A DNA stretch of 64,000 nucleotides, from NCBI GenBank assembly GCA_023898465.1, contig CP060223.1, positions 672,001 through 736,000 of the forward strand, in the 5' to 3' direction. How positions within the stretch are numbered: the stretch's first letter is position 1; every line of letters begins with the position of its first letter. Below the pieces are notes generated by a model. It saw only the letters and a program-made list of their open reading frames with translations. It had not been told where the DNA came from and did not search any database. A program made the translations under genes and the position numbers. Of the stretch, positions 2,895 to 60,180 are shown piece by piece. The DNA comes from Candidatus Nomurabacteria bacterium (GTDB lineage: Bacteria > Patescibacteriota > Patescibacteriia > HK-STAS-PATE-3).

Positions 2895-3887
2895 TTAGAA
2901 TTGCGACAAGAAACGAAGATCGCCCTGATATGACATACGCACATCAGGCACTTGATAGTAATACATCATGAGGCGATCAATCCCCATGCCAAAAGCAAAG
3001 CCAGAGTACTCCCGAGGATCAACGCGCATATTCCGCAGCACCTCTGGATGAATCATGCCGCAGCCCAGCATCTCCATCCAACCTTTGCCGCCGTTCATCA
3101 GGATTTCCGCGCCTGGCTCCACAAATGGGAAAAAGCTTGGCTGCGCTCGGATTTCTACGTGTTCGCCAAAAAGTGTTTTGAAAAAAGTTTCCAAAGTACC
3201 GAGAAGGTCGCCAAAGGTCAGCCCTTTGGCAATCGCCATACCTTCGCAGTAATGATAGTTCGCCTCATGCGACGCATCAGTTGCCTCGTGACGGAACACA
3301 CGCCCAGGTGAAATGAAACGGATCGGCGGCTGGCGCTCCTCCATCACCCGCACCTGCATCGGAGAAATGTGCGTGCGCAGTAAAGGCTGGTTGGGTCCGC
3401 TCTTCAGCGCACCGTCAATGTAAAAAGTATCCCACTCATCCCGGGCTGGATGATCCTCAGGGATGCGGAGGAAGTCGAAGTTGTACTTGGCCAGCTCAAT
3501 CTCCGGGCCATGCAGCACCTCATAACCCATGCCCATGAAGACCTCCTGAATCCGCCGCTGCATATGACGGAGAGGATGAATTGAACCAAGAGGCAGTTCC
3601 GGCCCCATTAGGGTGAGATCAGCTGCTGCTTTCACGTTCCCCTGCTGCAAAAGCTGCTGCTGTTTCTGCAGCGCTTGTTCCAGCTCTTGCTTCACGCTAT
3701 TCCAAAGTTTGCCCAGCTGCGCGCGGTCGCTCTGCGGCTGGCTGGCAATCGCGGTTGATGCCTGAGCTAAAGCGCCTTTGCGGCCAAGCCAGGTATTGCG
3801 CCACTGCTCCAGTGACTTCGCATCACTCACCTGCTGCAGAGCAGCCATGGCATCACTACGTAGCTTATTGAGTTCGGATTCCATCAT
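2895..3887 (-). CDS. pheS: Phenylalanine--tRNA ligase alpha subunit
   Basis: Class II aaRS core (…FRHEATDASHEANYHYCEGM…GMGIDRLMM). The N-terminus MMESELNKL matches the PheS coiled-coil start. Start chosen at M13/M14 (3887 or 3884); ORF M1 at 3923 is the alternative. Confidence 0.88.
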   Translation of the reverse strand: MMESELNKLRSDAMAALQQVSDAKSLEQWRNTWLGRKGALAQASTAIASQPQSDRAQLGKLWNSVKQELEQALQKQQQLLQQGNVKAAADLTLMGPELPLGSIHPLRHMQRRIQEVFMGMGYEVLHGPEIELAKYNFDFLRIPEDHPARDEWDTFYIDGALKSGPNQPLLRTHISPMQVRVMEERQPPIRFISPGRVFRHEATDASHEANYHYCEGMAIAKGLTFGDLLGTLETFFKTLFGEHVEIRAQPSFFPFVEPGAEILMNGGKGWMEMLGCGMIHPEVLRNMRVDPREYSGFAFGMGIDRLMMYYYQVPDVRMSYQGDLRFLSQF

Positions 3888-4266
3888 GCGGCTTTTGTTC
3901 ACGGGCCAGAGCAAAGAATTCAATCAAAGAAAGGAGGATGAGATAGGCAGCCAGGTTCCACCAACGCAGGAATTCAGACACCTGCATAATGAGCGCGCCG
4001 CTCACCAGGAGACTGAAGAGCGTGCCCTGGCGAAAAGAAATCGCCACCTGCCGGTAGGCCACTGGTTCGCGCACAAAGCGCATCCGCAGACCAAAACCCA
4101 GCAAGGAGAAGCTGCCAATCAAGGCAAAAAACAAGGTTAAAAAAAACGCGGCATGCCCGATGAAGCCCGACACCTCCGGATCAATCGAGAAAAGGACCAG
4201 CGCCCAGAGCGCCCAACTCAGCACCGTGGCCACAGTCATAAGGAGCAGGTAACGTCGAATGCTCAC
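3865..4266 (-). CDS. Small hypothetical integral membrane protein (4 predicted TM helices)
   Basis: 133-aa ORF, highly hydrophobic, no recognisable family; overlaps the pheS start by about 20 nt. Confidence 0.4.
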   Translation of the reverse strand: MSIRRYLLLMTVATVLSWALWALVLFSIDPEVSGFIGHAAFFLTLFFALIGSFSLLGFGLRMRFVREPVAYRQVAISFRQGTLFSLLVSGALIMQVSEFLRWWNLAAYLILLSLIEFFALAREQKPHDGIRTQ

Positions 4267-4491
4267 AAGGCAAAAATTCGGGAGTAATTAGCTAAAACAG
4301 CAGCCTGATTGTACCAGAAATCAGGTGCTGGGGCAAGATAGGATATTTAATTACTTTTTGTTTGGATAACGGGAAAAAAGGAAAATGAATGAATGTTCGT
4401 CGATCAAAATATCTTAGCACTCTTTCTTCAATCCATTCATTTATACCTAATATTTATTTTAGACACATATTATTGACCATACTTAACTCTT

Positions 4492-6819
4492 TCAGTCTTT
4501 CGTCGCATCATTGATAATTTGATAGTGATTTGGTGCGATTTTTTCCATCATCTCAAATAATTCATTCACAATCTTTTTTGTCTCTGGGACGAGCGCTGGA
4601 TTAAAACCGGATCCAGTAATATGTGATTGATCATTTGTAAATTTGTATATGGCGTCTAACTTTTGTTCATCATACCCATTTTGTTTTAACTCCTCTATCT
4701 TTTTATATGATTTTTTTCCATTTGGAACACTGAACATTAAAAACGTATCCCAAACCTTCCTTGCTATATTAGGAATAGGATATGCCTTGGCGATAGAATC
4801 ATCTTGTTCATCGCGAAGATATTTAAGTAATTTAAAGAGATAGTGGTATTCACTTTCATATTCACAAAGCTCTTTATCCATTCTATCAATGTAGGCACAA
4901 CGAATGTTCGAGGGAAAATAATTTTTTATCATAAAGTACCCGGTATTATCTCTCCCGGCACCCCTCCGCCAATTGATCAAAAGTTTCAAGAAATCAAAAC
5001 TATGAGTAAAAATAAACACTTGCCCGCCGTCTTTTACTGCACCCTTCAAAAAACTAAAGGCTTGATAAAGAGAATTTGAATCGAGGCTAGATACAGGATC
5101 GTCAATGAGGATGATTCCATTTTGAAGATCAAAACTCTGATCTTCAAGATGCACCACAAAATATATAAAGGCAATAGCGGTCTTTTCACCTTCGCTTAAA
5201 TATTTTGCAGCAGAGTCATCGCGCATGATATTGTACCCCGAAACAACCTCTTTTTCATCACCATTCTCGCTAATAACCGTTTCGATGCGCGGAACAAATT
5301 TTAGCTCTCTGTGCCCCAAATAAGTTGCTATTTTTTCATTGATGACTTCACAGGCCTTATGTTTCGATGAGATTTTCGCTGTATTTTCTTCAATTCTTTT
5401 ATTTATCTCCTCAATTTCTTTTGTTAATGTGTCTATGTTTTTTGTTAGATTAGAAATATCTGATTCTATTTTTTTTATATCGTCAAAAATTGTACTCAGA
5501 TAGTGGAATTTTATTTTTTCCGCAGCCCTCTGTTTAACGGTATCAAAATCCGCAGTTCGTTTTTTGTGTTCATCAATAATGGCATTTACGCTATCAACAA
5601 CTTTATATAGACCGATACTGCTCAATTTTTTATCATGCTCTACCCTTTCGGTCGTCTTACTTTTCTTACTTTTAATTTTATCCGCAAGATTTGTAATATC
5701 GTTGACAAATTGTTGTTTAGCTAGTTCAAAATTAACTTTTTCTGTCTCTAGGTTTGTTTGTAGGTCTTTATAGAATCTCGTTTTCTCGGGAATTGTTATA
5801 TTTTGAATAACGGAGTAAAGCTTCCTTAATTTTTCAACAAGACTATCCAGGTCTTCTTTTAATTTTTTGTCTGCATTATTAAAATAAAGTGCCAATTGCT
5901 CTACTCTATCATTTGGAATATTTTGTAAACAGTATTCGCAAACATCTGAAGAATGTCTTTTGTGTAATTTTACCCCCTCTTCTACCCATTCTGAAATATC
6001 ATTATTTTCTGCAAGTCGATTAATAATCTCGGACTCAACTTTTTTGTTTAATACGTTTTCTGCCTCGGTATTAATGGAATTTACAATTTCAGAAATTTCG
6101 TAATTGTTTTGATCTATTTCGACTTTCGGAATAAATATTCTATCCAAAAATGGTAGAGATTCCTGCTTTAAAGAGATTAATATATTATTGAGCTCTACTT
6201 CTTCTAGCTCCACCTTCCTATTAATTTTAGAAAAATCACTTTCTGCCTGCGGCCTACGATAATCTCTTAATGCATTTCCTCCGATCGCAGCTCCTATGGT
6301 TTTTGCAATTTCGGTGAATTGACCATCGCGACTTGCTTTAAGCCGCTTATGGTCTTTTTTATAATCTGCCAATCTTGCAATTTTTCCTCTTTGCTTCGGA
6401 TCAGATGAATCGCCGTTGAGTAAAGTTCTATCTTTTTTAATTTGAACAGCGAGATCTTTATTTTCTTCACCGAGTAAAATTGAAATTGAATTTGCACGGC
6501 CTTCTATAAGCTCAATATTTCTTTCTATATAGTCTCTGTTGAAAACTCTGACTTTTGGAGGGAATGTGTCGTTTTGATCGTACCTATTTCCATTCTCGTC
6601 TTCAATTTCATACTCCAGATTTTCAATACTCACCCCGCTTAAAGCATCAAATAAACGGGAGAGTGTTGTTTTGCCGCTTCCATTCCAACCATACACTAAA
6701 TTAAGTTGCTTGAAATTTGGCAAGGTTGATCTAGATCGTATTCCTGAACCCCAGACATAATTAGAAAAAACAAGTCCGAGATTTTTTATTTTATTGATTC
6801 TTTGGATAGCATTACCCAT
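4492..6819 (-). CDS. RloC/PrrC-like ABC-type ATPase with Rad50-like CxxC zinc hook (putative anticodon nuclease / abortive-infection defence protein, AAA_13-like)
   Basis: 775 aa. Walker A LVYGWNGSGKTT near the N-terminus; about 450 aa of predicted coiled coil interrupted by CEYC (CxxC hook); ABC signature LSEGEK; Walker B/D-loop GIILIDDPVSSLD; H-loop FIFTHSFDF; about 170-aa C-terminal extra domain. The gene and its flanks (about 4270-7040) are markedly AT-rich (about 30-35% GC by eye) against about 50% neighbours. Confidence 0.6.
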   Translation of the reverse strand: MGNAIQRINKIKNLGLVFSNYVWGSGIRSRSTLPNFKQLNLVYGWNGSGKTTLSRLFDALSGVSIENLEYEIEDENGNRYDQNDTFPPKVRVFNRDYIERNIELIEGRANSISILLGEENKDLAVQIKKDRTLLNGDSSDPKQRGKIARLADYKKDHKRLKASRDGQFTEIAKTIGAAIGGNALRDYRRPQAESDFSKINRKVELEEVELNNILISLKQESLPFLDRIFIPKVEIDQNNYEISEIVNSINTEAENVLNKKVESEIINRLAENNDISEWVEEGVKLHKRHSSDVCEYCLQNIPNDRVEQLALYFNNADKKLKEDLDSLVEKLRKLYSVIQNITIPEKTRFYKDLQTNLETEKVNFELAKQQFVNDITNLADKIKSKKSKTTERVEHDKKLSSIGLYKVVDSVNAIIDEHKKRTADFDTVKQRAAEKIKFHYLSTIFDDIKKIESDISNLTKNIDTLTKEIEEINKRIEENTAKISSKHKACEVINEKIATYLGHRELKFVPRIETVISENGDEKEVVSGYNIMRDDSAAKYLSEGEKTAIAFIYFVVHLEDQSFDLQNGIILIDDPVSSLDSNSLYQAFSFLKGAVKDGGQVFIFTHSFDFLKLLINWRRGAGRDNTGYFMIKNYFPSNIRCAYIDRMDKELCEYESEYHYLFKLLKYLRDEQDDSIAKAYPIPNIARKVWDTFLMFSVPNGKKSYKKIEELKQNGYDEQKLDAIYKFTNDQSHITGSGFNPALVPETKKIVNELFEMMEKIAPNHYQIINDATKD

Positions 6820-6954
6820 GACGGTAAAAAATTATATTATTGGCAAGTTCACCCCCACCATAAATCACATAGTAACCGATTACACCTTACACCCCTCCTT
6901 AACCTCTTACACCATTCATCTCAAGAAAATATTAAGACCACCCTCCCCTGCCAA

Positions 6955-6985
6955 TAGCAAAAGCGGGTAGCCAACGGCACCCGCT
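6955..6985 (-). terminator. Rho-independent terminator downstream of 7042..7590 gene
   Basis: Minus strand reads AGCGGGTGCCGTTGGCTACCCGCT (7-bp stem AGCGGGT/ACCCGCT) followed by TTTTGCTATT. Confidence 0.5.
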
Positions 6986-7041
6986 CATTACTCCCTCCAT
7001 AGGGTATTTCACCAGAAACAGATTAAGAAAATATTAAGAGG

Positions 7042-7590
7042 CTAAATTGCCTGATAGGTATTTACAATCTGAGTTGCCTCTTGAAGCATATTATCAGCTC
7101 CCTGGCTCCTCGCCGGGATCGTCCATAGCAACATAGCATCACCACTTACCATGTAGTAATGATCAAAACCACCGTCAAAGCTATAATACGCAGTGCTTCC
7201 GTTTGAGAGTGTTATCGCCTGCCAAGTATCCGCTATTTCAGTGTTCGAGCTGATAGTCAGAGATAGTGCTGGCACTTCGCTTGCCTGCTCTGTAGATGTA
7301 GGGGTCGGTACGTTCTTTTCAGTATTCACTGACCAACCCTGAGGGTAACGCACTGAGAAATGATACTCGGGATTTTCTACTACCTTCCAAGCAGAAATAT
7401 CTACATTGCCTGACGACGGTGGTAATACTGACTGAGTGAAATTTTGTTGCACCGCCATGGATGACTCTAGTTCGTTAACCTGAGCACTTAACTCTTGCGC
7501 ATCATTTCGAGCAAGGCTATACATCCACGCTAAACTCACCGTGATAACAACAAGGACAATAAAGGCTATATTCTGGAATTTCTTGGACAT
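7042..7590 (-). CDS. Hypothetical membrane-anchored protein (N-terminal TM helix, extracytoplasmic domain)
   Basis: 182-aa ORF with N-terminal hydrophobic anchor IAFIVLVVITVSLAWMY; no family recognised; own terminator downstream. Confidence 0.55.
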   Translation of the reverse strand: MSKKFQNIAFIVLVVITVSLAWMYSLARNDAQELSAQVNELESSMAVQQNFTQSVLPPSSGNVDISAWKVVENPEYHFSVRYPQGWSVNTEKNVPTPTSTEQASEVPALSLTISSNTEIADTWQAITLSNGSTAYYSFDGGFDHYYMVSGDAMLLWTIPARSQGADNMLQEATQIVNTYQAI

Positions 7591-7754
7591 AGTTGTCTCC
7601 TGCTAATTAATAACAGGGCTATCTTAGCCCAGTAATATCTAATAAGCAAGTCCTATTCTTAATATTTTCTTTAACTACCATATGTAAATTGTCCCTGGGT
7701 GATAACCAGCCTGATTATCACATCTGTGAAGTTCTTTGAAGAAAAGGAAGCAAA

Positions 7755-8108
7755 ATGAGGTATCTTCTCTTCCTGATTGTCGCACTGGTGGCGCTTTCAG
7801 TTGCTAGCCCCGGAGTGAGCCTTGCGACGGACACAACGGTGGAGTACTCCTTCTACGGTCCGTCCGGAGACTACAAGATCGAACTCTTCGAGGTGGGGGC
7901 ACCCTATCCATCTCGACAAGACTACGTCTACGGCTATAGTGGCACTTTCACGTATCGCCGTACTTGGTCATCGATCGTCGCCTACCGATCCTACTTCATC
8001 CGCATCACTGACCTTAACTCGGGAGTCGCAAAGCAGACTGGATCCGTCTACGTTACCTACAATGGTGGGTACTATGCGTGGTCGACCTGCTACTGGAGCT
8101 CAATGTAA
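7755..8108 (+). CDS. Small secreted Tyr/Trp/Ser-rich hypothetical protein
   Basis: 117 aa, classic signal peptide MRYLLFLIVALVALSVASPGVSLA, mature part about 90 aa with 17 Tyr; followed by a terminator at 8137..8172. Confidence 0.6.
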   Translation: MRYLLFLIVALVALSVASPGVSLATDTTVEYSFYGPSGDYKIELFEVGAPYPSRQDYVYGYSGTFTYRRTWSSIVAYRSYFIRITDLNSGVAKQTGSVYVTYNGGYYAWSTCYWSSM

Positions 8109-8906: not shown

Positions 8907-9461
8907 CTACAAAATAATTAGACTCGCCACTACTCCGTAAATGACCACGCTAAGCATGTCCTGCAACACCGTAGCGATCGGTCCGGTGCTCGCTGCTGGA
9001 TCTCGATGAGCTGATTGGAAGAGGTAGGCAATGATGAGTGCTACTACTGGGGCTGTGGTAATAGCAACACATGAAGCAATCGCCACGCTCAATGACAATT
9101 GCGCATCTCCCAACCAAAACCAAGTGATGAGTCCGGAGATAAGACCAAACACGATGCCAATAATTACACCGAGAGAAAACTCTTTGCGGAGATAAACCTT
9201 GAACTTGGCTTTCCCAGTTTTTAAATCACGGGAATAAATAGCCTCGGTTTGCGTCCCCACTGCATCAGAAATATACACAATGAAGGGCATGAAAAAGGCC
9301 ACCTGCACGCTATGGGCCAGCACTTCTTCAAAACGCGAAGTAACAAAAGAAATACCAATGCCTAACATGAGACCAAAAATAAGAGCTGGGGCTCGCAGGT
9401 TTAATAAAGTACCAATGCTCTCATGACCATCATCTGCGTATCGTATTTTTGGCGTTTGCAT
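8907..9461 (-). CDS. MgtE-family divalent-cation transporter, membrane domain only (no N/CBS domains)
   Basis: 184 aa with the PF01769-type motifs (…PFIVYISDAVGTQTEAI… and …DPAASTGPIATVLQDMLSVVIYGVVAS…). Confidence 0.7.
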   Translation of the reverse strand: MQTPKIRYADDGHESIGTLLNLRAPALIFGLMLGIGISFVTSRFEEVLAHSVQVAFFMPFIVYISDAVGTQTEAIYSRDLKTGKAKFKVYLRKEFSLGVIIGIVFGLISGLITWFWLGDAQLSLSVAIASCVAITTAPVVALIIAYLFQSAHRDPAASTGPIATVLQDMLSVVIYGVVASLIIL

Positions 9462-9792: not shown

Positions 9793-12700
9793 TTATACCG
9801 CCTTGAATGGACAAATCTGTTTGAACTCGCAGCCGCCGCACTTGATGGGATTTGGATCAGCCGTGAAGTCTGCTTCCCGGATTTGTCCAATCTGCTCCAG
9901 CACCCATTCACGAGCCGCTTCCAGGTCTTTCTCCTTTGGCACAAATGAGACCTGACTGTTATCGTCAATATACCAGAAGGTTAACTTCCCTACCTTGCGA
10001 TGCAGCAGATCGCTATCCTGCACGGCTAATGCATAGAGGATGAGCTGGTACTTCGCTTCCTTGCTCGGCTTCTCTTTCGCTGTGCCGGTTTTGTAATCAA
10101 TGATTTCCACTTCCTCGCTATCCTCAATCTGATCAATGCGGTCAATCTTACCGGTCAAGCGAAACTCTTCTGAGAGTTGAATAGTGAAAGGCTGCTCGAG
10201 CGCCAAAGGCACAGGCAGGTCGCCGCTATAGGATGCGTAAAAAGCTTTCAGCGACTCCCAGCCTTTTTGCTTACTCTTCTCCATGTCGCGTTCGCCGTCA
10301 TACCATTCACGAATCCAGTTACGCTCGTACAACTCTTTTAACTCAGCCAGAGAAACGCTCTTAGCTCCAGCCTCCAATATCCCCTCATTTACTTTCGGCG
10401 CTTCAGCGAAAAGAGTGACTTGCCGCTTCTTGCTGCGCTCTTGCACGAGGCGGAAGAAATCGTACAAGGTAGCGTGGACAGATTGCCCATAGGAGAAGCG
10501 CTTGTTCCCAGGCTCTGGCACTTCCAAGGCATAGCGGTAGCGGAATTTCCATGGACAGAGATCATAGGTGCTGATGCGGGAATAGTCATAGCGCGTTTCT
10601 TCGGCCACTTTGCGTAAGATGCTCTCCGGCTCTGATTGCACAGCACTTCGCACACGAGCGTTGAGTAAAGTCGACTGCTGTTTTTTCTCCTCCGCTGCCT
10701 GCTCCTTGGTCACCAATCCCATTTCGATTAAGAAAGGAGAAGGACGCTTCACAGTTGCGCCGCCGTAATCCAAGGCACGGGTTAAGGTGAGTGAATCCTT
10801 TGCGCGAGTGAGGGCAACATAGAAGAGGCGGCGCTCTTCTTGAATATGCACATTCCCCTCTGGCAAACGTTCGTGTACCAAACCATCGGGCAAACTAATC
10901 GCATCACCGCGATCAGAGGATGGGAAACGCCGCTCAACCATATTCACGACAAAGACATGACGGAATTCCAAACCCTTGGCCGCGTGCACGGTCATCAGCT
11001 TCACGCTATCTGGACCTTCTTGCGCCACCGCATCCAACTGCCCCTCTTCCCCGGCATCCATGGAGGCCTGCATAAGAAGGAGGAAGTTTTTCACGCTCGG
11101 TTCGGTGTTGCCGCGCTCAAAGTCAGTCACTTCGCGATAGTACTGTGATAAGTAATGGAGCTGCGCTTGCTTGACCGGATCATCATCATCGCTTAAGTAA
11201 CGCAGATAGCCGGAGTCCTCGAGGAAAGCATAGAGCACGCGGCTGACGTTGCGCCGCTCTTGCAGGGCTAGAGCCGTGTGCGACTCAATCAAACCTAGCA
11301 GACGATCAGCTTCTTGATGTGTTTTTTGACTCAGAGTGGAAATGAGTCCGTGCTCTTTCAATGACTGATAGACTGAGCGGCTTTGGCGACGAGCATCTTG
11401 ATTTAGGGTAATGATATCCTGCGTAGAAAAAGAAAAAATCGGCATGGTCAGCACCCGATGCAAGGCAATGTCCTCGTGATAATTATCCAACATGCGCAGA
11501 TAAGCCAGCACGTCGAGTACGACTGCCTGACGATACAGCCCGCGAGCGGCCACATACTGGTATGGGACGCCTGAGCGTTCGGCAGCGTTCAGAAAAGATT
11601 CCAAGTGCGCGTTTGCTCGAGCCAGAATAGCGAAATCGCTCCACTGCAAATCCTTATCCGCATTCTTCTGAGCCAGGATTTGCTCTACTACTTTTTCCGC
11701 CTCGTCATCTTCAGTCGAGGTGACCAGCTCCTGAATTTTTGCCTCACCCTGACGAGCGGCTTGTAAGCGTTTATTTAAACCCTTGCCGTCATCCTGCAAC
11801 TGCACTTCTAAACGGTTTGGGTTATTGAGTTGAATAAAGTTGTAGGCCGTATCCAGGATGCGTTGATACGAGCGATAGTTTTGGGTCAATACCACGCTGG
11901 TGCAGTCTTTGTAATCTTCGCGGAACTGCATAATGTTAGCAACCGACGCACCACGGAATTTATAAATCGATTGGTCGTCATCACCCACCACGGTTAAATT
12001 GTTTTCCGGTGCAGCTAGGAGCTTCACTAATTCATACTGCGCCCAGTTGGTGTCCTGGAATTCATCAACCAGAATCGCTTTGAATTGATTGCGATAACGC
12101 TGCAGCAATGTCGAGCGAGTTTGAAAAAGCTTGAGTGTCTCCACAATCAGATCACCGAAGTCGACAAAGCCGCGCTCGCGTAGTAAACGATTATAAAGAT
12201 GGAAAGATGAAGCAAGCTCTTGTAAGCGTTGCACATCCTCGCCGGCTGCATCCTTATCCTCTTTTTTAGTAAACTCGCTTTGATCCAGATTAAGTCGCTT
12301 CTCCTCGACAAAGGCAAGGTAACGCTCCGGGCTCACCACTTCATCTTTTAATCGCGAGAAGTGTTTGATAAGTGATTGGAGAAACTTGGTCGGGCGACCG
12401 TGCGGACGATAGTAATCTAGAGAAAGTGCGTCCAAGTGCTGACGCAAAAACATCCACTGCTGCCGCTCGGATAACACTTGGAAGTCACCAGGTAAACCAA
12501 CGTCAATCGCATTCTCCCGCAGCACGCGCTCACCAAATCCGTGAAAGGTTGATACCCAAAGGTCGACATAGCCAGTTGGCAAGCGGCGGTCAATGCGATC
12601 AAGCATTTCATTGGCTGCTTTGTCGGTAAAAGTGAGACAAAGCACCTCGTCAGGCCGCAGTCCCTTCTCAGTAATCAACCAGGCCAGTCGCTCAACAATC

Positions 12701-12858
12701 ACTGTGGTCTTACCCGTGCCTGCGCCAGCCACGATAAGGAGTGGTCCCTGAGCATGCTCAACAGCCTGACGCTGCTCAGCGTTCAATTGCACGTCGAAGG
12801 AATTGGACGCGGCCTTGGCCTCCCCTTTTGCTGCTGCTTTCTTCGCGGTCATAGCCAT
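9793..12858 (-). CDS. UvrD/PcrA-family helicase fused to C-terminal RecB-type PD-(D/E)XK nuclease with Cys cluster (AddA/AdnB-like helicase-nuclease)
   Basis: Walker A AGAGTGKTT, SF1 helicase motifs through to VHAAKGLEF…FVALTRAK. The C-terminus has IDRID…EIIDYKTG…QLILY and a terminal C-x-x-C…C cluster (CGGCEFKQIC). Start chosen at MAMTAKK (12858); ORF M1 is at 12936. Confidence 0.8.
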   Translation of the reverse strand: MAMTAKKAAAKGEAKAASNSFDVQLNAEQRQAVEHAQGPLLIVAGAGTGKTTVIVERLAWLITEKGLRPDEVLCLTFTDKAANEMLDRIDRRLPTGYVDLWVSTFHGFGERVLRENAIDVGLPGDFQVLSERQQWMFLRQHLDALSLDYYRPHGRPTKFLQSLIKHFSRLKDEVVSPERYLAFVEEKRLNLDQSEFTKKEDKDAAGEDVQRLQELASSFHLYNRLLRERGFVDFGDLIVETLKLFQTRSTLLQRYRNQFKAILVDEFQDTNWAQYELVKLLAAPENNLTVVGDDDQSIYKFRGASVANIMQFREDYKDCTSVVLTQNYRSYQRILDTAYNFIQLNNPNRLEVQLQDDGKGLNKRLQAARQGEAKIQELVTSTEDDEAEKVVEQILAQKNADKDLQWSDFAILARANAHLESFLNAAERSGVPYQYVAARGLYRQAVVLDVLAYLRMLDNYHEDIALHRVLTMPIFSFSTQDIITLNQDARRQSRSVYQSLKEHGLISTLSQKTHQEADRLLGLIESHTALALQERRNVSRVLYAFLEDSGYLRYLSDDDDPVKQAQLHYLSQYYREVTDFERGNTEPSVKNFLLLMQASMDAGEEGQLDAVAQEGPDSVKLMTVHAAKGLEFRHVFVVNMVERRFPSSDRGDAISLPDGLVHERLPEGNVHIQEERRLFYVALTRAKDSLTLTRALDYGGATVKRPSPFLIEMGLVTKEQAAEEKKQQSTLLNARVRSAVQSEPESILRKVAEETRYDYSRISTYDLCPWKFRYRYALEVPEPGNKRFSYGQSVHATLYDFFRLVQERSKKRQVTLFAEAPKVNEGILEAGAKSVSLAELKELYERNWIREWYDGERDMEKSKQKGWESLKAFYASYSGDLPVPLALEQPFTIQLSEEFRLTGKIDRIDQIEDSEEVEIIDYKTGTAKEKPSKEAKYQLILYALAVQDSDLLHRKVGKLTFWYIDDNSQVSFVPKEKDLEAAREWVLEQIGQIREADFTADPNPIKCGGCEFKQICPFKAV

Positions 12859-12970
12859 AGGATAGCACAAACAGCATGTCAACACACACTTCCCCCAGCG
12901 TAGGTTTTTAACCTGCGCTGGGAATAAATGCCACACAGCGCAGGCTCTCCTGCCTGCGCTCTTTATAAAC

Positions 12971-17523: not shown

Positions 17524-18138
17524 TTACTGCATCGCTTCCTTTAATCGCATGATGCTGACCAGGGCGCCTCGCTCCTGCTCATCCAATTTGCTGGAAATGT
17601 ATTTCACATTCCGCTCAATCTCGGGAACAAAGACAAACTCAAGTGCATTCACACGACGACGCGTCTTCTCAATCTCAGCTGAGAGTAAACGAGCTGAGTG
17701 CTCGGTCTGAGCTAACTCCACGATCTTTGGCAGCGCATCTGAGAATGTTTTCAGAGAAGTATCAAGTCCAGAGGAAGTAGTTGCCAAAGAGTAGCTCAGG
17801 AAATCACCTGACTCGGCATACTGAAACTGTGGCACCTGCACACTCATGACGTTCTTGGTTGCCACCTGCAATTGAATTTGCTTCGTGGTGACTGCCAGCG
17901 CTTCCTCGGTTACTTCCGGACGCATATCAGCTGAAGCGATAATGAAACTCTGGAACGCTTGACCGAGCTGAGCCTCTACTTCTTGTCGTAAGCTGCGAGT
18001 CTTTTTGATGATACCTAAGAACTCCTGCATCAAGCCTTCGAGTTTTTCCTCGAGTAAAGAATGACCGCGCTTGGCCATCTTGAGCTTACCCTTGAGTCGG
18101 ATAAGCTCCATGCGTGTTGGGTTAATCGTTTGCGCCAT
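17524..18138 (-). CDS. atpD: V/A-type ATP synthase subunit D
   Basis: MAQTINPTRMELIRLKGKLKMAKRGHSLLEEK… typical NtpD/AtpD N-terminus; last gene of operon. Confidence 0.9.
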   Translation of the reverse strand: MAQTINPTRMELIRLKGKLKMAKRGHSLLEEKLEGLMQEFLGIIKKTRSLRQEVEAQLGQAFQSFIIASADMRPEVTEEALAVTTKQIQLQVATKNVMSVQVPQFQYAESGDFLSYSLATTSSGLDTSLKTFSDALPKIVELAQTEHSARLLSAEIEKTRRRVNALEFVFVPEIERNVKYISSKLDEQERGALVSIMRLKEAMQ

Positions 18139-18221
18139 AGGGTAATGAGTGTTCGAGCGTATCCGCCCAGAGCGGAGAAGTCGAGAACCGAGCTTAGCTT
18201 CTCGACAAGCTCGAAGACTAA

Positions 18222-19628
18222 TTAGGAGTCAGATTTGGGTAAATACTTCTCAATATATTCTTCTTTCACACGCTTCAGTTCAGACTTCGGCAAGATGGAG
18301 AAGAGTTCCCAACCGAGATTCAAGGTCGTGAGAATATCGCGATCCTCATACTCACCTTGGTTGATGTAGCGTGACTCAAACTGCGTGGCAAATTCCACGT
18401 ACTTCTTATCAACGTCGGACAGAGCAGCTTCACCGAGGATAGCGGCTAATTCCTTTGCCTCAGTGCCACGAGCGTAGGCAGCATAGAGCTGGTTAAAGAC
18501 TCCGGAGTGATCCTCACGAGTCTTCTCTTCTCCGATACCCTTCGGCATCAGACGAGAGAGACATGGCAGCACATCAACTGGAGGACGAATACCGCGCTTG
18601 TGCAAGCCGCGGCTTAACATGATTTGTCCTTCGGTAATGTAGCCGGTCAAGTCAGGAATTGGATGTGTCTTATCATCTTCCGGCATGGTAAGAATCGGGA
18701 TCTGGGTAATTGAACCCTTCTTACCCTTGATCATACCAGCGCGCTCGTACAGGGTAGCTAAGTCAGTGTAGAGGTAACCTGGGTAGCCACGGCGACCTGG
18801 GACTTCTTTACGAGCTGCCGCAACTTCACGCAAGGCTTCACAGTAGTTAGTCATGTCGGTCAGGATAACCAAGACGTGCATGTCCTTTTCAAAAGCCAGA
18901 TACTCGGCAGTGGTCAGAGCCAAGCGAGGTAGAGTGATACGTTCAACCACCGGGTCATTTGCCTGGTTCAAGAAGAGTACCGCGCGGCTGATAGCACCGG
19001 TCTTGCGGAATTCATTTACGAAGTATTCTGCTTCTTCAAAGGTGATACCCATAGCGCCAAAGACTACAGCGAATTGGGAATCCTCTGCTTCCACTTTACC
19101 CTGCGGGGAAACGCGAACCACTTTTGCCTGACGAGCGATTTGGGCGGCCATGGCATTGTGTGGCAAACCAGCGCCGGAGAAAATCGGTAGCTTTTGTCCA
19201 CGCACTAAAGTATTCAATCCATCAATCGTGGAAATACCGGTTTGGATAAAGTCATTTGGGAAGTTACGGGAGTATGGGTTAATCGGATTACCGTTCACGT
19301 TCAAACGTGCTTCGGCAATGATTTCGGCTCCACCGTCTTTTGGCTTACCTGAGCCGTCAAAGACGCGACCAAGCATGTCGGTGGAAACTGGCAATTCCAT
19401 AACGCGGCCGAGGAAGCGGGCGGAAGCATCCTGCACGCTAATACCGCGAGTGTCTTCAAACATCTGTACCACTGCCCGATCATTGTCGATTTCGAGCACG
19501 CGGCCGCGGCGAATCTTGCCATCAGGCAATTTCACATCGACCAGCTCTTCGTATTTGACGCCTTCCACTCCCTCAACAATGAGGAGAGGACCAGCGACTT
19601 CACGTAGTGTCTTGTATTCTCGTTCCAT
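18222..19628 (-). CDS. atpB: V/A-type ATP synthase subunit B (regulatory)
   Basis: 468 aa, [23 protein letters not shown]…, non-catalytic nucleotide-binding fold. Confidence 0.92.
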
Positions 19629-19639
19629 ATGCGTGCTCC

Positions 19640-21385
19640 TTAGTTAGCGGCAGCTACGGCGGACGGAATCTCCGTCACCAGCTGCTCCAGCTCCTTAATC
19701 TTCTCTGTCGGCACTTCTTTCATGCGGCCGATGCGCTCTTTGATTGGCAGGTTGACCATCTGCTTCAAGTTCACTCCCCGCTCCAGCGCCTCTTGGGCGG
19801 CGTGGTGGAAGGCCAGGATACCCTTTAACATGTAGTATTGCTTCTGCAGACTGGTGTAGGTATCAACGTCATCGAAGGCGTTTTGCATCAGGAAGTCTTC
19901 GCGTAATGCTCGAGCGGTTTCTAATACTAATTGCTCCTTAGCCGACAAAGCGTCCTGTCCGACCAAGCGAACGATTTCTTCTAGCTCAGACTCTTGCTGC
20001 AGTAAGCGCATAGCTTCACCGCGCAATTCGCCGAAATCACTGCCGGTTTCTTTGCTGAAGAAGCTTTGTAAATCATCTGAGTAGAGTGAGTAGCTGGTTA
20101 ACCAGTTAATTGATGGGAAGTGACGGCGATAGGCCAGCTTCGCTTCGAGTGACCAGAACACTTTTGTCACACGTAAGGTGTTTTGCGTTACTGGCTCAGA
20201 CAAGTCACCGCCAGGAGGAGAAACAGCTCCTACCACAGTGAGTGAACCTTGGCGACCTTCGCTACCGAGTGTTTCCACGATTCCAGCTCGCTCATAAAAG
20301 GCGGCGGTACGGGAACCAAGATAGGCTGGGTAACCTTCTTCACCTGGCATTTCTTCCAGACGACCAGAAATTTCACGCATAGCCTCGGCCCAGCGGGAAG
20401 TTGAGTCAGCCATCAAGGCAACGCTGTAACCCATGTCACGGAAATATTCCGCAATAGTGATACCGGTATACACCGATGCTTCACGAGCTGCCACCGGCAT
20501 ATTGGAGGTGTTGGCAATCAACACTGTGCGTTCCATCAAAGGCTTACCAGTCTTAGGATCTTTTAACTCAGGGAATTCCAGCAACACGTCAGTCATTTCA
20601 TTGCCGCGCTCACCGCAGCCGATGAAGATAACAATGTCCGCATCAGCCCACTTCGCCAGCTGGTGCTGAATCACGGTCTTACCAGCGCCGAAAGGACCAG
20701 GGATACACGCGGCACCGCCCTTCGCAACTGGGAAGAAGGTATCAATAATGCGCTGTCCGGTAATCAGAGGACGCATTGGAGGTAATTTTTGCTTGACCGG
20801 TCGTGGATCGCGAATTGGCCAGCGCTGCAACATGGTGATTTCTTCTTTATCAACCACTGCTACAACTTCGGTAATGTTGTGTTCACCTGTCGCAATTTTT
20901 TTCACAGTACCTTCTTGAATATGTGGAGGTACGAGAATTTTGTGGGTGATCAGGCTGGTTTCTTGCACCTCACCCAGGACATCACCAGCGTGCACGACAT
21001 CACCCTCTTTTACCTTTGGCTGAAAATCCCACTTCTTTTCTTCATCAAGTGGAGCTACATCCAAACCGCGACCGATGAAAGCGCCTGAGCGCTCTTCCAG
21101 CTTCACGAGCGGTCGCTGAATACCATCATAGAACGAGGTCAGCAAACCCGGACCCAGAGTCACGGCCAGAGGGAGCTCAGTGCGGTACACTGGCTCGCCT
21201 GGTCCTAAACCTCCGGTGTCTTCATACACCTGGATATAGGCTTGATCGCCGTCCAGACGGATGATTTCTCCGACCAATTTCTGTTCGGATACTTTCACCA
21301 CTTCATACATTTTCGCTCCTTGCATGCCTTTCGCAACCACGAGAGGGCCGGAGACTTTGGTGATAATTCCTGTGTGTTCTTTCAT
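19640..21385 (-). CDS. atpA: V/A-type ATP synthase subunit A (catalytic)
   Basis: 581 aa, [21 protein letters not shown]…, P-loop GPFGAGKTV. Confidence 0.93.
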
Positions 21386-21450
21386 ATAATTCTCAAGTAT
21401 TCAAGTTGCAAATATCAAGCTACAAATTACTACTTGTCATTTGATACTTG

Positions 21451-21777
21451 CTACTTGTCGTTTTTAAAAAGTATATCGCTACCTACTGCGCGCTCGACAA
21501 TACGACGCAGCTCTCGATCCCCCGCTCCAGTCGAACCAGTTGGCCCAGGGACCACGGTGACTGCTGGCAAAGCTCGAGTACGTAATTCATCTAACTCTGG
21601 ACGCAATTGATCAGCCCAATCCTCGGTGATGAGGAGGATGGCGCATTCTGAAGCAGCGATTTGCTGCAGCACCTCACGACCTTGCTCAGCTGTGGCTACT
21701 GGCCAAGCCCGCACGCCTAGCGCTTTGAAGCCGCCGATGGCATTTGGTGAACCAAGAATAGCGATTGGATGATCCAT
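21451..21777 (-). CDS. atpF: V/A-type ATP synthase subunit F
   Basis: Start at MDHPIAILGSPNAIGGFKALGV (ATG 21777, 1 nt after atpC stop, TAACATG); about 108 aa. Confidence 0.8.
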   Translation of the reverse strand: MDHPIAILGSPNAIGGFKALGVRAWPVATAEQGREVLQQIAASECAILLITEDWADQLRPELDELRTRALPAVTVVPGPTGSTGAGDRELRRIVERAVGSDILFKNDK

Positions 21778-21778
21778 G

Positions 21779-22774
21779 TTAGTAGAGCTCCCGGATGTAA
21801 GGTTTAATAGCGTCGCCTGGCAAACCATTTAACTTGCCTGACATGATTAAACGCACGTTACGAATAGCATTCTTCTTTGCGTAATAATATGCCAAAGGTA
21901 ATTCAGGACCGTAATCAATGAATTGAGCTTCCCGCACATGTGCCAGCTCAGCATTCTCCAGATCACGCTCTAATGTTTCCAGTGAATCAGTTTCGCGGAA
22001 TCGTTCCAGAGCCGGCTGCAGAGATGAGGGCACCAGCGTGGTTAAGCGCTGCAAGGCTTCTTCATTACTTAAGCCCAAGAGTGACTCGTAGTCATCCAAG
22101 GTGACGTTTCCATTCATTAACACTTCCGCGAGGAGGTAACGATCATCGAGCTGGAAGCGACGTCCTCGAATCCAGGTTTTCAGATTAGCCATGTCAATCT
22201 GTAGCACCACTAAATCCATAATCCACTGACTATCGATTTCCTGGGCGATCTGAACGCGTTCAGCAAAGTATTGTCGATCTAGCCAGCGATCAATATAGGC
22301 TGACTGCACTTCCACTGTAGCGGCTTTTTCCTCAACCAGATCAATCCCCCGCTGGATATAGTCAGGCAATTCATGCTGAGCTTCCTGCATCAGGTTTTCT
22401 TGCAAAGTAGCAAATGGGACGGTACTGAGCGGTGAGGCCCAGGCAGTCGCGTCCTGATGAAAGTACTTCTGCTTCATCAACAACTTCAAGTTGTGATAGT
22501 CATGGCGCATAAAGACAAGCGCCACGAGCTTCTCATCAGGACACATTTCAATAATGCGCTCTTTTGCTTGCAATAAATCTGCTTCGAGTGACTGATTAAA
22601 CTCAGCCGGTGCGATATCGCCTACGTTGTCGAAGTAATCGGTGTCATGAAACACGCGAAAAGCTGACTCCATATCTGGAGCATCAACCATGCGTTCCACA
22701 TCGGTCGGATTCAAAAGATTCGACTCAAGGTGTCGTACAACTCCGGCTGCGTAGAGATAATCGTCTCGGCTCAT
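21779..22774 (-). CDS. atpC: V/A-type ATP synthase subunit C (d-like)
   Basis: 331 aa alpha-helical protein in the conserved operon position between E and F. Confidence 0.8.
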   Translation of the reverse strand: MSRDDYLYAAGVVRHLESNLLNPTDVERMVDAPDMESAFRVFHDTDYFDNVGDIAPAEFNQSLEADLLQAKERIIEMCPDEKLVALVFMRHDYHNLKLLMKQKYFHQDATAWASPLSTVPFATLQENLMQEAQHELPDYIQRGIDLVEEKAATVEVQSAYIDRWLDRQYFAERVQIAQEIDSQWIMDLVVLQIDMANLKTWIRGRRFQLDDRYLLAEVLMNGNVTLDDYESLLGLSNEEALQRLTTLVPSSLQPALERFRETDSLETLERDLENAELAHVREAQFIDYGPELPLAYYYAKKNAIRNVRLIMSGKLNGLPGDAIKPYIRELY

Positions 22775-22777
22775 AGT

Positions 22778-23341
22778 TTAGACAAAAAGTTGGGCAGCTA
22801 CCGCCGCTTCAGTTTGCGTGCGGATGTTAGCTAAGAGTGTGGCAAAGCGACAATCGACTTCAATCGCTTCTGAGCGCCAGATAAATCCACCTTCGGCGTC
22901 AACTGACTCTTTGGCTATGGTCCAGTCGCGCTTGAGGCCATGGAGCGCCTTCTTGGTCTGCGCTTCTTTACCCTTGGCTGGGATTATCTCCCCTTTTTCA
23001 TTAGGTAGCTGGGTAAAGAGTTGCTGCAAGAATGCTTCGTAGTCGGCGTCACTTAATTGGCTAAGCTTTTGCAAAGCCTTTTCGTACACCGAAGCTAAAA
23101 CGCGACGCTTCTCAGTTAACACTGATTGACGCAAACGCGATTCAGCGGCGAATCGCTCCATATCACTTTCCTGACGCACAGCCCGATCGGCCTGAGTCAA
23201 CGCTTGGTCACGGGCTTTACTCATACGCCCTTCCCACTCGCTGAGCAGAGCATCGCGCTCTTTGGCATGAGCAGCCTGAATTTGCGCGAGCTCTTTGTCG
23301 GCTTCAGCCTGCACACTCTGGAGAAGTTGATTGAGTGCCAT
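22778..23341 (-). CDS. atpE: V/A-type ATP synthase subunit E (peripheral stalk)
   Basis: 187 aa, long N-terminal coiled coil and globular C-terminus; operon position. Confidence 0.8.
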   Translation of the reverse strand: MALNQLLQSVQAEADKELAQIQAAHAKERDALLSEWEGRMSKARDQALTQADRAVRQESDMERFAAESRLRQSVLTEKRRVLASVYEKALQKLSQLSDADYEAFLQQLFTQLPNEKGEIIPAKGKEAQTKKALHGLKRDWTIAKESVDAEGGFIWRSEAIEVDCRFATLLANIRTQTEAAVAAQLFV

Positions 23342-23347
23342 GGATGC

Positions 23348-23815
23348 TTAGACGGTGATGCCGTTTAAGAGCAAAATGGTAGCGAGCAATCCAAGTACGG
23401 CGTAGGTTTCTACTACCGCAGCGAAGATAATACCCTTACCGGATTCTGACGGTTTCTTTGCCACGATACCGACGCCAGCCGCAGCTACTCGACCCTGGTA
23501 CAAACCAGAGAGTAAGCCGGTGAAGGCAATTGGTAAACAAGCAAAGAAGATTTCCCAACCGGTGTTGACGGAAATCGTTGCTACTTCTCCGCCGAGTAAA
23601 CCGATTTTCTGCAGCGCCATGATAGCACCGAGGAATCCGTAAATACCCTGCGTACCAGGAAGCGCTTGGAGCAAAAGTACGCGTCCAAACTTTTCCGGGT
23701 CAACTGATACGAGGCCAGAGGCAGCTCGACCCACTGTGGCAGTACCGAGAATCGAACCGATTCCGGCGAGGCTGACCGCAGTGATGGCTCCAGCAATTGC
23801 GAATGCGAGTCCCAT
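23348..23815 (-). CDS. atpK: V/A-type ATP synthase subunit K (proteolipid, duplicated 4-TM form)
   Basis: 155 aa, Gly/Ala-rich hydrophobic hairpins, conserved acidic residue context (…VETYAVLGL…). Confidence 0.85.
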   Translation of the reverse strand: MGLAFAIAGAITAVSLAGIGSILGTATVGRAASGLVSVDPEKFGRVLLLQALPGTQGIYGFLGAIMALQKIGLLGGEVATISVNTGWEIFFACLPIAFTGLLSGLYQGRVAAAGVGIVAKKPSESGKGIIFAAVVETYAVLGLLATILLLNGITV

Positions 23816-23831
23816 ATGGTTCTCCTGTTAA

Positions 23832-59777: not shown

Positions 59778-60180
59778 GGGGGATGCCCAATAATCGATCG
59801 ATCGTTCACAATCTGTGCAGGCAAGCCGGTCACCCAGGTCTCCCGTAACAGGCCCTGGAAAAAGCAAGTGTCAATTCATTTGCCAGCAAGGTAAAGAACT
59901 CCATTGCTAACGCAATGCAGTCACTCCAACTTGCGCCAGTTGTCGCGTAAAAACCGATAACCATCTATGCTTACGATGTCCTGAGTTGTTCGCATGGGTG
60001 CTACACTTATCAGGATAGGAACCTACCTTGTCTCGGGTTTGTTCCGAACTATTGAGACTAGGAAATAAATGATTTCGTTCGTTTCATACATTTGTTTCTG
60101 AAGCATTAAAGCGAACTAGGCTTGTAGAATGTACACGATTGTACGATGAGACGCGGGCGTGATACCCGCCATCTCCACCA
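59778..60180 (+). ncRNA. ssrA: tmRNA (ssrA), predicted
   Basis: About 400-nt ORF-free gap right after smpB. 5' GGGGAUG pairs with 3' CAUCUCC-A-CCA, giving a 7-bp acceptor stem with G3:U wobble (the Ala identity element) and encoded CCA. T-arm GCGGG-CGUGAUA-CCCGC sits just before it (same stem as E. coli, deviant loop). 5' AUCGAUCGUUCACAAUC is complementary to 3' GAUUGUACGAU (P2). Perfect 8-bp terminator hairpin immediately follows at 60182-60207. Candidate tag frame ends …LAPVVA-UAA. Confidence 0.6.

What the first reader, a model, noticed from the sequence alone, without database searches (positions are those of the whole stretch)
4270..7040. AT-rich island carrying a stand-alone RloC/PrrC-like zinc-hook ABC ATPase (candidate anticodon-nuclease defence gene)
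The 775-aa ORF has a specific architecture: Walker A at the N-terminus, an about 450-aa coiled coil carrying a CxxC (CEYC) hook exactly as in Rad50 and RloC, then ABC signature LSEGEK, Walker B/D-loop, H-loop, and an about 170-aa C-terminal domain where PrrC/RloC carry their anticodon nuclease. The gene and its flanks are far more AT-rich than the surrounding housekeeping genes, indicating horizontal acquisition. No restriction-modification partner (as for PrrC) is present, which matches the stand-alone RloC configuration. It lies right beside pheST.
Basis: partly seen in the sequence, partly recalled or inferred. Interest (0 to 1): 0.7.

Follow-up and report, generated by a model that had tools for sequence, protein, structure and literature searches.

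The report
Stand-alone RloC-type anticodon nuclease gene

Summary
Observation confirmed. A 775-aa ORF (4492-6819, minus strand) lies in the lowest-GC stretch of the window: GC 0.34 and GC3 0.29, against 0.485 for the window and GC3 0.51-0.64 in pheS, pheT and the small ORF between.

It matches Pfam AAA_13 end to end (E 7e-118) and the PADLOC candidate-defence family PDC-S06 (E 6e-224).

- Walker A K50
- CEYC hook C294/C297
- signature LSEGEK
- Walker B DDP (D573)
- H-loop H606
- the C-terminal R687-x3-D691-x41-S732-H733 motif, which fits the published RloC signature Arg-x3-Glu-x36-52-(Ser)His. Asp replaces Glu here; the position is always acidic.

Relatives occur in many bacterial phyla and in archaea. 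Of 63 relatives' loci, 13 sit inside type I hsdM-hsdS-X-hsdR operons and 11 next to recombinases. The closest relative follows a type II R-M/Vsr cassette. The window copy has no such partner.

Verdict: a stand-alone RloC-family anticodon-nuclease defence gene, a new member of a known kind. tRNA cleavage and anti-phage activity are inferred, not shown. Low-to-moderate interest.

The parts
4492..6819 (-). rloC-like gene, 775 aa (NCBI USN53192.1, annotated there only as 'AAA family ATPase')
   Evidence: ORF. AAA_13 E 7e-118, full length. PADLOC PDC-S06 E 6e-224. Identical protein in NCBI.
6664..6690 (-). Walker A / P-loop GWNGSGKTT (K50)
   Evidence: Translation. G44, N46, G49 and K50 are invariant in the 61-sequence alignment: the window protein plus 60 genome homologues.
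5317..6468 (-). Mostly helical insert (aa 118-501) that forms the Rad50-like arm
   Evidence: AlphaFold2 full-length model, pLDDT 84, long helices on both sides of the CxxC. Foldseek best matches are Rad50, SMC and retron PtuA ATPases.
5929..5940 (-). CEYC putative zinc hook (C294, C297)
   Evidence: Both Cys are invariant in the 37-sequence and 61-sequence alignments. They lie in the loop between the ascending and descending helices. Colinear with GkaRloC C288/C291 (PMC2610378).
5182..5199 (-). ABC signature LSEGEK (S542)
5080..5115 (-). Walker B / D-loop IILIDDPVSSLD (D573, D574, D580)
   Evidence: GkaRloC's Walker B residue is D572 (PMC3458546).
5002..5007 (-). H-loop T605-H606
   Evidence: Invariant in the 61-sequence alignment.
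4495..4983 (-). C-terminal HEPN-like domain (aa 613-775), the presumed anticodon nuclease
4747..4761 (-). R687-K-V-W-D691: the Arg and acidic residues of the ACNase triad
   Evidence: R687 is invariant. Position 691 is D 23 / E 14 in the 37-sequence alignment and E 50 / D 11 in the 61-sequence alignment. It matches the published Arg-x3-Glu motif.
4621..4626 (-). S732-H733: the His of the ACNase triad, preceded by Ser
   Evidence: Invariant in both alignments. It lies 41 residues after D691, within the published 36-52 spacing.
4267..4491 (.). AT-rich 3' flank of the island (GC 0.32); left GC boundary at about 4267-4300
   Evidence: No convincing small ORF. DNA similarity to the closest homologue does not extend into it.
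6820..6960 (.). 5' flank and likely promoter region of the gene; right GC boundary at about 6900-6960
   Evidence: GC profile. Promoter-like TTGGCA-17-TATTTT at 6954-6926 (-). Terminator-like hairpin of the upstream gene at 6986-6961 (-). These are consensus matches only.

Best explanation
The gene encodes a stand-alone RloC-family protein. It has an ABC ATPase head split by a long Rad50-like helical arm with a CxxC zinc hook at its tip, fused to a C-terminal HEPN-type RNase domain.

By analogy with the studied RloC proteins of Geobacillus kaustophilus and Acinetobacter baylyi, the ATPase/zinc-hook region would keep the RNase off. On sensing DNA ends or breaks (phage infection, genotoxic stress) and hydrolysing ATP, it would switch the RNase on. 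The RNase would then cut the anticodon loop of certain tRNAs, stopping translation and phage production. No external silencer such as an R-M enzyme would be needed.

The gene was acquired horizontally as a single-gene cassette, inserted upstream of the small membrane-protein ORF and pheST in a roughly 1.08-Mb Candidatus Nomurabacteria genome.

Shown here: the architecture, motif conservation, predicted folds, composition anomaly, and the defence/mobile-element contexts of relatives.
Inferred: the nuclease activity, its tRNA targets, the DNA-break trigger and the anti-phage role.
For: - AAA_13 matches full length at E 7e-118.
- PADLOC PDC-S06 matches full length at E 6e-224; weaker matches to LmuB, PrrC and AriA.
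- Homologues at 43-73% identity are named 'wobble nucleotide-excising tRNase' by JGI and 'Translation-disabling ACNase RloC' by NCBI.
- End-to-end BLASTP alignment to an NCBI-named 'wobble nucleotide-excising tRNase' from Pullulanibacillus: 25% identity, E 1e-52, with the hook and triad motifs aligned.
- K50, C294, C297, D573, H606, R687, S732 and H733 are invariant, and position 691 is always Asp or Glu, in the 37-sequence and 61-sequence alignments.
- The published RloC definition is Arg-x3-Glu-x36-52-His with Ser before His. The published GkaRloC residues are K44, C288/C291, D572, R692/E696/H737 in 804 aa, colinear within 6 residues with this protein.
- The full-length model gives a Rad50/SMC/PtuA-like head and arm.
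- GC 0.34 and GC3 0.29 against 0.485 for the window.
- Relatives sit in type I R-M operons (13 of 63 loci), next to recombinases (11 of 63) or SIR2-like genes (4 of 63), next to a HEPN_AbiV gene, or behind a type II R-M + Vsr cassette. They are on 237 plasmid records, 157 of them conjugative.
Against: - No experiment exists for this protein or its close clade. PADLOC lists PDC-S06 only as a candidate.
- The triad Glu is Asp here (as in 23 of 37 sequences of the close alignment). In GkaRloC only the Glu-to-Ala change was tested.
- The C-terminal domain alone gives no hit to the PADLOC PrrC model or to any solved structure by sequence. The nuclease assignment therefore rests on motifs plus a predicted fold.
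- The characterised GkaRloC and AbaRloC sequences could not be retrieved for direct alignment.
- NCBIfam has no model that names it.
Confidence: 0.72

Rival explanations
1. It is an RloC/PrrC-like nuclease that does depend on an R-M enzyme, encoded elsewhere in the genome (in trans), as its silencer and sensor, as PrrC depends on EcoprrI.
For: Of 63 relatives' loci, 13 lie inside hsdM-hsdS-X-hsdR operons, including L020 at 46% identity. The closest homologue (73% identity) overlaps the end of a type II MTase-REase-Vsr cassette. Davidov and Kaufmann raised interaction in trans.
Against: No R-M gene was found among the window ORFs scanned, and there are no R-M remnants. The zinc-hook arm that gives RloC its internal switch is intact and invariant. 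AbaRloC is activated in an R-M-deficient host (PMC3874168 abstract). Only 64 kb of about 1.08 Mb was examined.
Confidence: 0.1
2. It is an ABC-HEPN defence protein of the same architecture, but with a different RNA target (other tRNAs, mRNA or rRNA) or a different trigger from the studied RloCs. The Asp-variant clade would be functionally distinct.
For: This protein is only 25% identical to an NCBI-named Bacillales homologue. Asp replaces the triad Glu, and Trp precedes it, in most of the close clade. GkaRloC and AbaRloC already differ in their tRNA targets. One E. coli PDC-S06 protein was not called by DefenseFinder (bioRxiv 10.1101/2025.01.08.631966).
Against: Asp and Glu interchange freely among close relatives. 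All other catalytic and regulatory residues are invariant across the whole family. Nothing points to another substrate.
Confidence: 0.13
3. It is a generic Rad50/SbcC/SMC-like DNA-repair or chromosome-maintenance ATPase, and the C-terminal domain is not a nuclease.
For: By sequence, the only PDB match is Rad50. The full-length fold search returns Rad50, SMC, cohesin and condensin heads. The NCBIfam best hit is an archaeal SMC-related protein, far below its cut-off.
Against: Rad50 and SbcC lack the C-terminal domain. That domain is HEPN-like and carries the invariant Arg / acid / Ser-His residues. There is no Mre11/SbcD partner nearby. The foreign composition and patchy, mobile distribution are unlike a housekeeping gene.
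Confidence: 0.03
4. It is a decaying or inactive remnant of a defence gene.
For: It has no partner genes, sits in a reduced genome, and the triad Glu is replaced by Asp.
Against: The 775-codon ORF is intact in 34%-GC DNA, where shuffles give at most 221 stop-free codons. It aligns over its full length with homologues, and every functional motif is kept.
Confidence: 0.02

Closest known systems
RloC (COG4694; 'wobble nucleotide-excising tRNase'), studied in Geobacillus kaustophilus HTA426 and Acinetobacter baylyi ADP1 (PMC2610378, PMC3458546, PMC3874168)
   Same: Same length class (775 vs 804 aa). Same order and near-identical positions of Walker A, the CxxC hook, Walker B and the Arg-x3-acid-x41-Ser-His motif. 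Rad50-like arm. C-terminal HEPN-type domain. Usually stand-alone, laterally transferred, and occasionally found in type I R-M loci.
   Different: Only about 25% identical to the Bacillales homologue that could be compared. Asp replaces the triad Glu. The host is a CPR/Patescibacteria bacterium. No biochemical data exist for this clade.
PADLOC candidate system PDC-S06 (sub-model PDLC04894)
   Same: Full-length match, E 6e-224. A single-gene candidate defence system.
   Different: PDC-S06 is a guilt-by-association candidate. The papers found list it only as a prediction, without experimental validation or a stated mechanism. It appears to be the AAA_13/RloC-like group under another label.
PrrC anticodon nuclease of E. 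coli (prr locus, EcoprrI)
   Same: ABC ATPase motifs and the Arg/Glu/His ACNase triad. Some relatives of the window gene occupy the same hsdM-hsdS-X-hsdR slot as prrC.
   Different: PrrC is about 400 aa and has no coiled-coil/zinc-hook insert. It is always R-M linked and is activated by the T4 Stp peptide. The PADLOC PrrC model gives only 39 bits here, mostly from the ATPase part, and the C-terminal domain alone gives no hit.
Rad50 / SbcC / SMC-type ATPases, and the defence ATPases LmuB (Lamassu) and PtuA (Septu/retron)
   Same: ABC head split by a helical arm; a CxxC hook as in Rad50. These are the best full-length structural matches. PADLOC LmuB matches at E 1e-19.
   Different: They lack a fused HEPN domain and work with separate nuclease partners (Mre11/SbcD, LmuA, PtuB). 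No such partner lies next to this gene.

Membership tests
RloC | ABC ATPase motifs: Walker A, signature, Walker B/D-loop, H-loop | tested here: met
   GWNGSGKTT, LSEGEK, IILIDDPVSSLD and TH are present. The key residues are invariant in the 61-sequence alignment.
RloC | Long coiled-coil insert between Walker A and the signature motif, with a central CxxC zinc hook | tested here: met
   CEYC at aa 294-297, with both Cys invariant. The AlphaFold2 model has long helices on both sides of the CxxC. The best structural match is Rad50. Zinc binding itself is not testable here.
RloC | C-terminal Arg-x3-Glu-x36-52-His motif, with Ser often before His (Davidov and Kaufmann 2008) | tested here: met
   R687-x3-D691-x41-S732-H733. 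The acid is Asp in this protein. The position is Asp or Glu in every homologue (D 23 / E 14 in the close alignment; E 50 / D 11 in the distant one). This is a conservative deviation from the written motif.
RloC | The C-terminal nuclease domain has a HEPN fold (Anantharaman et al. 2013) | tested here: met
RloC | Sequence homology to the experimentally characterised GkaRloC or AbaRloC | tested here: inconclusive
   Neither sequence could be retrieved. Indirect support: an end-to-end alignment at E 1e-52 to an NCBI-named 'wobble nucleotide-excising tRNase' of Bacillales; JGI and NCBI RloC names on homologues; residue numbering colinear with the published GkaRloC residues.
RloC | Wobble-nucleotide excision from tRNA; ACNase activated by DNA plus ATP hydrolysis and restrained by the zinc hook | not testable with these tools
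   Needs biochemistry.
RloC | Usually not linked to an R-M locus; laterally transferred | tested here: met
   No R-M gene was found among the window ORFs scanned. GC3 is 0.29 against 0.51-0.64 in the neighbours. Of 63 relatives' loci, 50 lack hsd neighbours.
PrrC | About 400 aa, with an ABC NTPase domain that has no coiled-coil insert | tested here: not met
   775 aa, with an insert of about 385 aa.
PrrC | Embedded in a type I R-M (hsd) operon that silences it | tested here: not met
   The neighbours are a 133-aa membrane-protein ORF with pheS on one side and a 182-aa protein without Pfam match on the other.
PrrC | C-terminal ACNase domain homologous to PrrC's at profile level | tested here: not met
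   The PADLOC PrrC model scores 39 bits for the full-length protein. The C-terminal 163 aa alone give no hit at E <= 1.
Rad50/SbcC | No C-terminal nuclease domain; works with an Mre11/SbcD partner | tested here: not met
   An extra HEPN-like domain is present. No Mre11/SbcD-like neighbour was found.
PADLOC PDC-S06 | Full-length match to a PDC-S06 HMM, as a single gene | tested here: met
   PDLC04894: E 6.3e-224, aa 5-772 against model positions 3-737 of 740.

The most novel reading that the evidence does not exclude
The Asp-variant RloC-like clade matched by PADLOC sub-model PDLC04894 is well represented in Patescibacteria/CPR and other uncultured lineages. It could be a functionally distinct stand-alone defence or stress switch, with a different tRNA/RNA target or trigger than GkaRloC and AbaRloC. 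If so, it would give ultra-small episymbiotic bacteria, whose defence repertoire has been little studied, a one-gene abortive-infection system, and it would be the first mechanism attached to the untested PDC-S06 candidate.
Probability: 0.12. Interest if true: 0.45.

Novelty: new member of a known kind. Interest (0 to 1): 0.22.

Why it matters
It upgrades a database entry, 'AAA family ATPase' (USN53192.1), to a specific and testable function. It indicates that PADLOC's untested PDC-S06 candidate is, at least for this sub-model, the RloC-like anticodon-nuclease group. It also documents a recently acquired single-gene translation-shut-off defence in a roughly 1-Mb CPR genome. It does not open a new question: the family, its architecture, its lateral mobility and its occasional R-M linkage were all described between 2008 and 2013.

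Tried and rejected
1. Retrieving GkaRloC for a direct alignment failed. I searched with a Bacillaceae homologue and screened all 240 retrieved proteins and the genome-locus proteins for the published residue numbering. None matched.
2. The supplement of the HEPN paper holds only an HTML index, with no alignments.
3. The empty-site test for the insertion failed. A metagenome scan with PheS found no relative. Exact-protein look-ups of PheS and the 182-aa protein returned only the same strain, plus one short contig.
4. I looked for a conserved partner gene. The 181-aa ORF near the closest homologue is unrelated to the window's 182-aa ORF. There are no remnants of that homologue's R-M/Vsr genes in the window, and no plausible small ORFs in the flanks.
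5. A 13-nt inverted repeat at 4280-4292 / 6983-6995 brackets the island. I rejected it as element termini: pairs of this length are expected by chance in 4.6 kb (my own estimate, about 6), and the right arm is part of the terminator-like hairpin of the upstream gene.
6. The AFDB Foldseek library was unavailable.
8. Rfam and the tRNA scan found nothing in or beside the island.
Full report
**What is there**

The window holds a 775-codon ORF on the minus strand at 4492-6819, with an ATG start. In 2000 shuffles of the same 2328 bases, the longest stop-free run was 221 codons, so the ORF is maintained rather than accidental.

The gene has GC 0.343 and GC3 0.294. The window has GC 0.485, and windows of the same size have sd 0.034. 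The lowest-GC 2328-bp window of all 64 kb starts at 4301. The neighbours have GC3 of 0.61 (pheS), 0.51 (pheT) and 0.64 (a 133-aa membrane-protein ORF at 3865-4266).

The low-GC tract begins at about 4267-4300, just upstream of the 133-aa ORF's start codon. It ends at about 6900-6960, just downstream of a terminator-like hairpin (6986-6961) that follows the upstream 182-aa gene. There is one small correction: a small GC-rich membrane-protein ORF lies between the gene and pheS.

**Anatomy of the protein**

Translation shows these motifs:
- Walker A, GWNGSGKTT (aa 44-52)
- CEYC (aa 294-297)
- ABC signature, LSEGEK (aa 541-546)
- Walker B/D-loop, IILIDDPVSSLD (aa 569-580)
- H-loop, T605-H606
- a 163-aa C-terminal domain (aa 613-775) carrying R687-K-V-W-D691 and S732-H733

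Pfam AAA_13 (PF13166) matches end to end at E 7e-118, covering model positions 10-712 of 713. In PADLOC the protein matches the single-gene candidate PDC-S06 over its full length (sub-model PDLC04894, E 6e-224). It matches LmuB, PrrC and AriA only weakly. NCBIfam has no model that reaches its cut-off.

A full-length AlphaFold2 model built on 37 homologues has pLDDT 84. It has an α/β head formed by the N- and C-terminal parts, and long helices on both sides of the CxxC loop. Its best Foldseek matches among solved structures are Rad50, SMC heads and the retron/Septu PtuA ATPases.

**Relatives**

The identical protein is NCBI USN53192.1, 'MAG: AAA family ATPase [Candidatus Nomurabacteria bacterium]', on a 1,082,586-bp contig.

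About 600 proteins matched at E <= 1e-5. Among the 120 best listed, nearly all cover the full length at 43-73% identity. JGI names many of them 'wobble nucleotide-excising tRNase'. One Parcubacteria protein is named 'Translation-disabling ACNase RloC' by NCBI.

A scan of one genome per GTDB species found at least 302 relatives. They come from Verrucomicrobiota, Acidobacteriota, Saccharibacteria and other Patescibacteria, Nitrospirota, many Proteobacteria, Bacteroidota, Actinomycetota, Bacillaceae and two archaea.

I checked motif conservation in two alignments. One holds 37 close sequences. The other holds 61 sequences: the window protein plus 60 genome-derived homologues at 24-59% identity. 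In both:
- K50, C294, C297, S542, D573, D574, H606, N684, R687, S732 and H733 are invariant.
- Position 691 is always acidic: D 23 / E 14 in the close set and E 50 / D 11 in the distant set.

**Comparison with the known family**

Davidov and Kaufmann (2008) defined RloC by four features (PMC2610378):
- PrrC-like ABC motifs
- a Rad50-like coiled-coil/zinc-hook insert
- a C-terminal Arg-x3-Glu-x36-52-His motif, with Ser often preceding His
- only rare R-M linkage

The window protein has R-x3-D-x41-SH. The functionally tested residues of Geobacillus RloC (804 aa) line up with the window protein's residues (775 aa) within six positions:

| Feature | GkaRloC | Window protein |
|---|---|---|
| Walker A Lys | K44 | K50 |
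| Zinc hook | C288 / C291 | C294 / C297 |
| Walker B Asp | D572 | D573 |
| Triad Arg | R692 | R687 |
| Triad acid | E696 | D691 |
| Triad His | H737 | H733 |

I could not obtain the GkaRloC sequence itself. The nearest substitute is an end-to-end BLASTP alignment to the protein that NCBI names 'wobble nucleotide-excising tRNase [Pullulanibacillus pueri]'. It shows 25% identity at E 1e-52, with the hook and both triad motifs aligned.

The protein is not a PrrC. It has the large insert, it is not in an hsd operon, and its C-terminal domain alone does not hit the PADLOC PrrC model. No member of the family has a solved structure detectable by sequence.

**Genomic context and mobility**

The window gene has no partner. 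Upstream lie a 182-aa membrane-anchored protein and a 117-aa protein, neither with any family match. Further upstream are an MgtE-like fragment, an AddA-like helicase-nuclease, a surface protein and a V/A-type ATPase operon. Downstream are the 133-aa ORF and pheST. The ten largest ORFs further along the window are housekeeping genes or have no Pfam match, and none is an R-M gene.

Relatives sit in many different places:
- The closest one (73% identity) overlaps the end of an HTH / C5-methyltransferase / HpaII-like endonuclease / Vsr cassette.
- Another, in a Parcubacteria genome, lies next to a HEPN_AbiV gene.
- Another lies among integrase, resolvase and transposase genes.
- Of 63 species-representative loci, 13 have the gene inside an hsdM-hsdS-X-hsdR operon (the prrC slot), 11 lie next to serine or tyrosine recombinases, and 4 lie next to SIR2-like genes.
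- Homologues occur on 237 plasmid records, 157 of them conjugative, and in a few prophages and phages.

DNA similarity to the closest homologue (74%) is confined to the ORF (4499-6803). No remnant of that homologue's R-M genes exists in the window. Taken together with the composition, this is a laterally acquired single-gene cassette.

**Most likely mechanism**

This is inferred from the studied RloCs (PMC2610378, PMC3458546, PMC3874168). The zinc-hook/ATPase region acts as an internal switch. DNA ends together with ATP hydrolysis activate the HEPN nuclease. The nuclease cleaves the anticodon loop of particular tRNAs; in GkaRloC it excises the wobble nucleotide, which resists phage tRNA repair. 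This halts translation. The result is an abortive-infection or stress-contingency function that needs no external silencer, which fits the stand-alone arrangement here.

The Asp at the triad's acidic position is a conservative change. It alternates freely with Glu among close relatives, so I expect it to be functional. It has not been tested.

**Rivals**

- Dependence on an R-M enzyme in trans. This is plausible for some relatives and cannot be excluded from 64 kb of a 1.08-Mb genome.
- A different RNA target or trigger for this clade.
- A plain Rad50/SMC repair ATPase. The conserved HEPN-like domain and the foreign, mobile character of the gene argue against it.
- A decaying gene. The intact ORF and intact motifs argue against it.

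**Verdict**

This is a new member of a known kind: RloC-family, listed by PADLOC as the untested candidate PDC-S06.

It has modest added value in three ways:
- A better annotation for a CPR genome.
- A link between PDC-S06 and the RloC-like group.
- Documentation of the Asp variant.

Interest is low to moderate.

Noticed in passing
window 6923-6937 (+), 7025-7039 (+), 7657-7671 (-): The 15-mer AAGAAAATATTAAGA occurs three times exactly within 750 bp. With up to 2 mismatches there are 4 matches in the window against 0.14 expected by chance. One copy lies about 65 nt upstream of the 182-aa gene, one directly after its stop codon, and one about 104 nt upstream of the rloC-like start, overlapping a promoter-like match. 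Similarity does not extend much beyond the core. It may be a regulator-binding site.
   Followed up: partly
L090 (Logan SRR14234116) = window 8247-6920: A 1328-bp contig from a different sample is 100% identical to the window and ends at 6920, three bases past one copy of the 15-mer and close to the GC boundary of the island. This could be a strain-level breakpoint (island present or absent) or merely low coverage.
   Followed up: partly
window 3865-4266 (-): A GC-rich (GC3 0.64) 133-aa ORF rich in hydrophobic stretches overlaps the pheS start as called on the public contig, which looks operon-like. The gene call on the public Logan contig instead lists an 84-aa ORF on the opposite strand. It has no family match.
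   Followed up: partly
window 7042-7590 (-) and 7755-8108 (+): Two small ORFs (182 aa and 117 aa) with hydrophobic N-termini have no match in Pfam, NCBIfam, PADLOC or PHROGs. The 182-aa gene has intermediate GC (0.45).
   Followed up: partly
window 8907-9461 (-): A 184-aa MgtE-like ORF covers only the C-terminal membrane part of the transporter (TIGR00400 positions 282-447 of 450). It is either a truncated or a minimal MgtE.
   Followed up: no
L002 1632-7330 (Logan SRR33696242): The closest homologue (73% identity) is the last gene of a compact cassette: HTH regulator, RadC-fused C5 DNA methyltransferase, HpaII-like endonuclease, Vsr, then the RloC-like gene, whose start overlaps the Vsr gene by 8 nt. 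This is a type II R-M linkage, not the type I linkage described for PrrC and RloC.
   Followed up: partly
L091 1013-3241 (Enterobacter phage ENT4, PV844615.1): An unannotated 31-kb phage record encodes a 742-aa RloC-like protein with a CPFC hook, SLSEGEK, IIDDPISSL, IPNIMRNILEYY and RGSH motifs.
   Followed up: partly
window 17524-25871 (-), 9793-12936 (-), 26503-27501 (+): A V/A-type ATPase operon (D, B, A, C/AC39 and I subunits), an AddA-like UvrD/PD-(D/E)XK helicase-nuclease, and RmuC. A second, milder low-GC stretch (about 0.43) spans roughly 24.2-29.8 kb.
   Followed up: no
window 59779-60180 (+), 62649-62726 (-): tmRNA (Rfam, 74 bits) and tRNA-Asp(GTC) are the only RNA genes detected in the window.
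   Followed up: no
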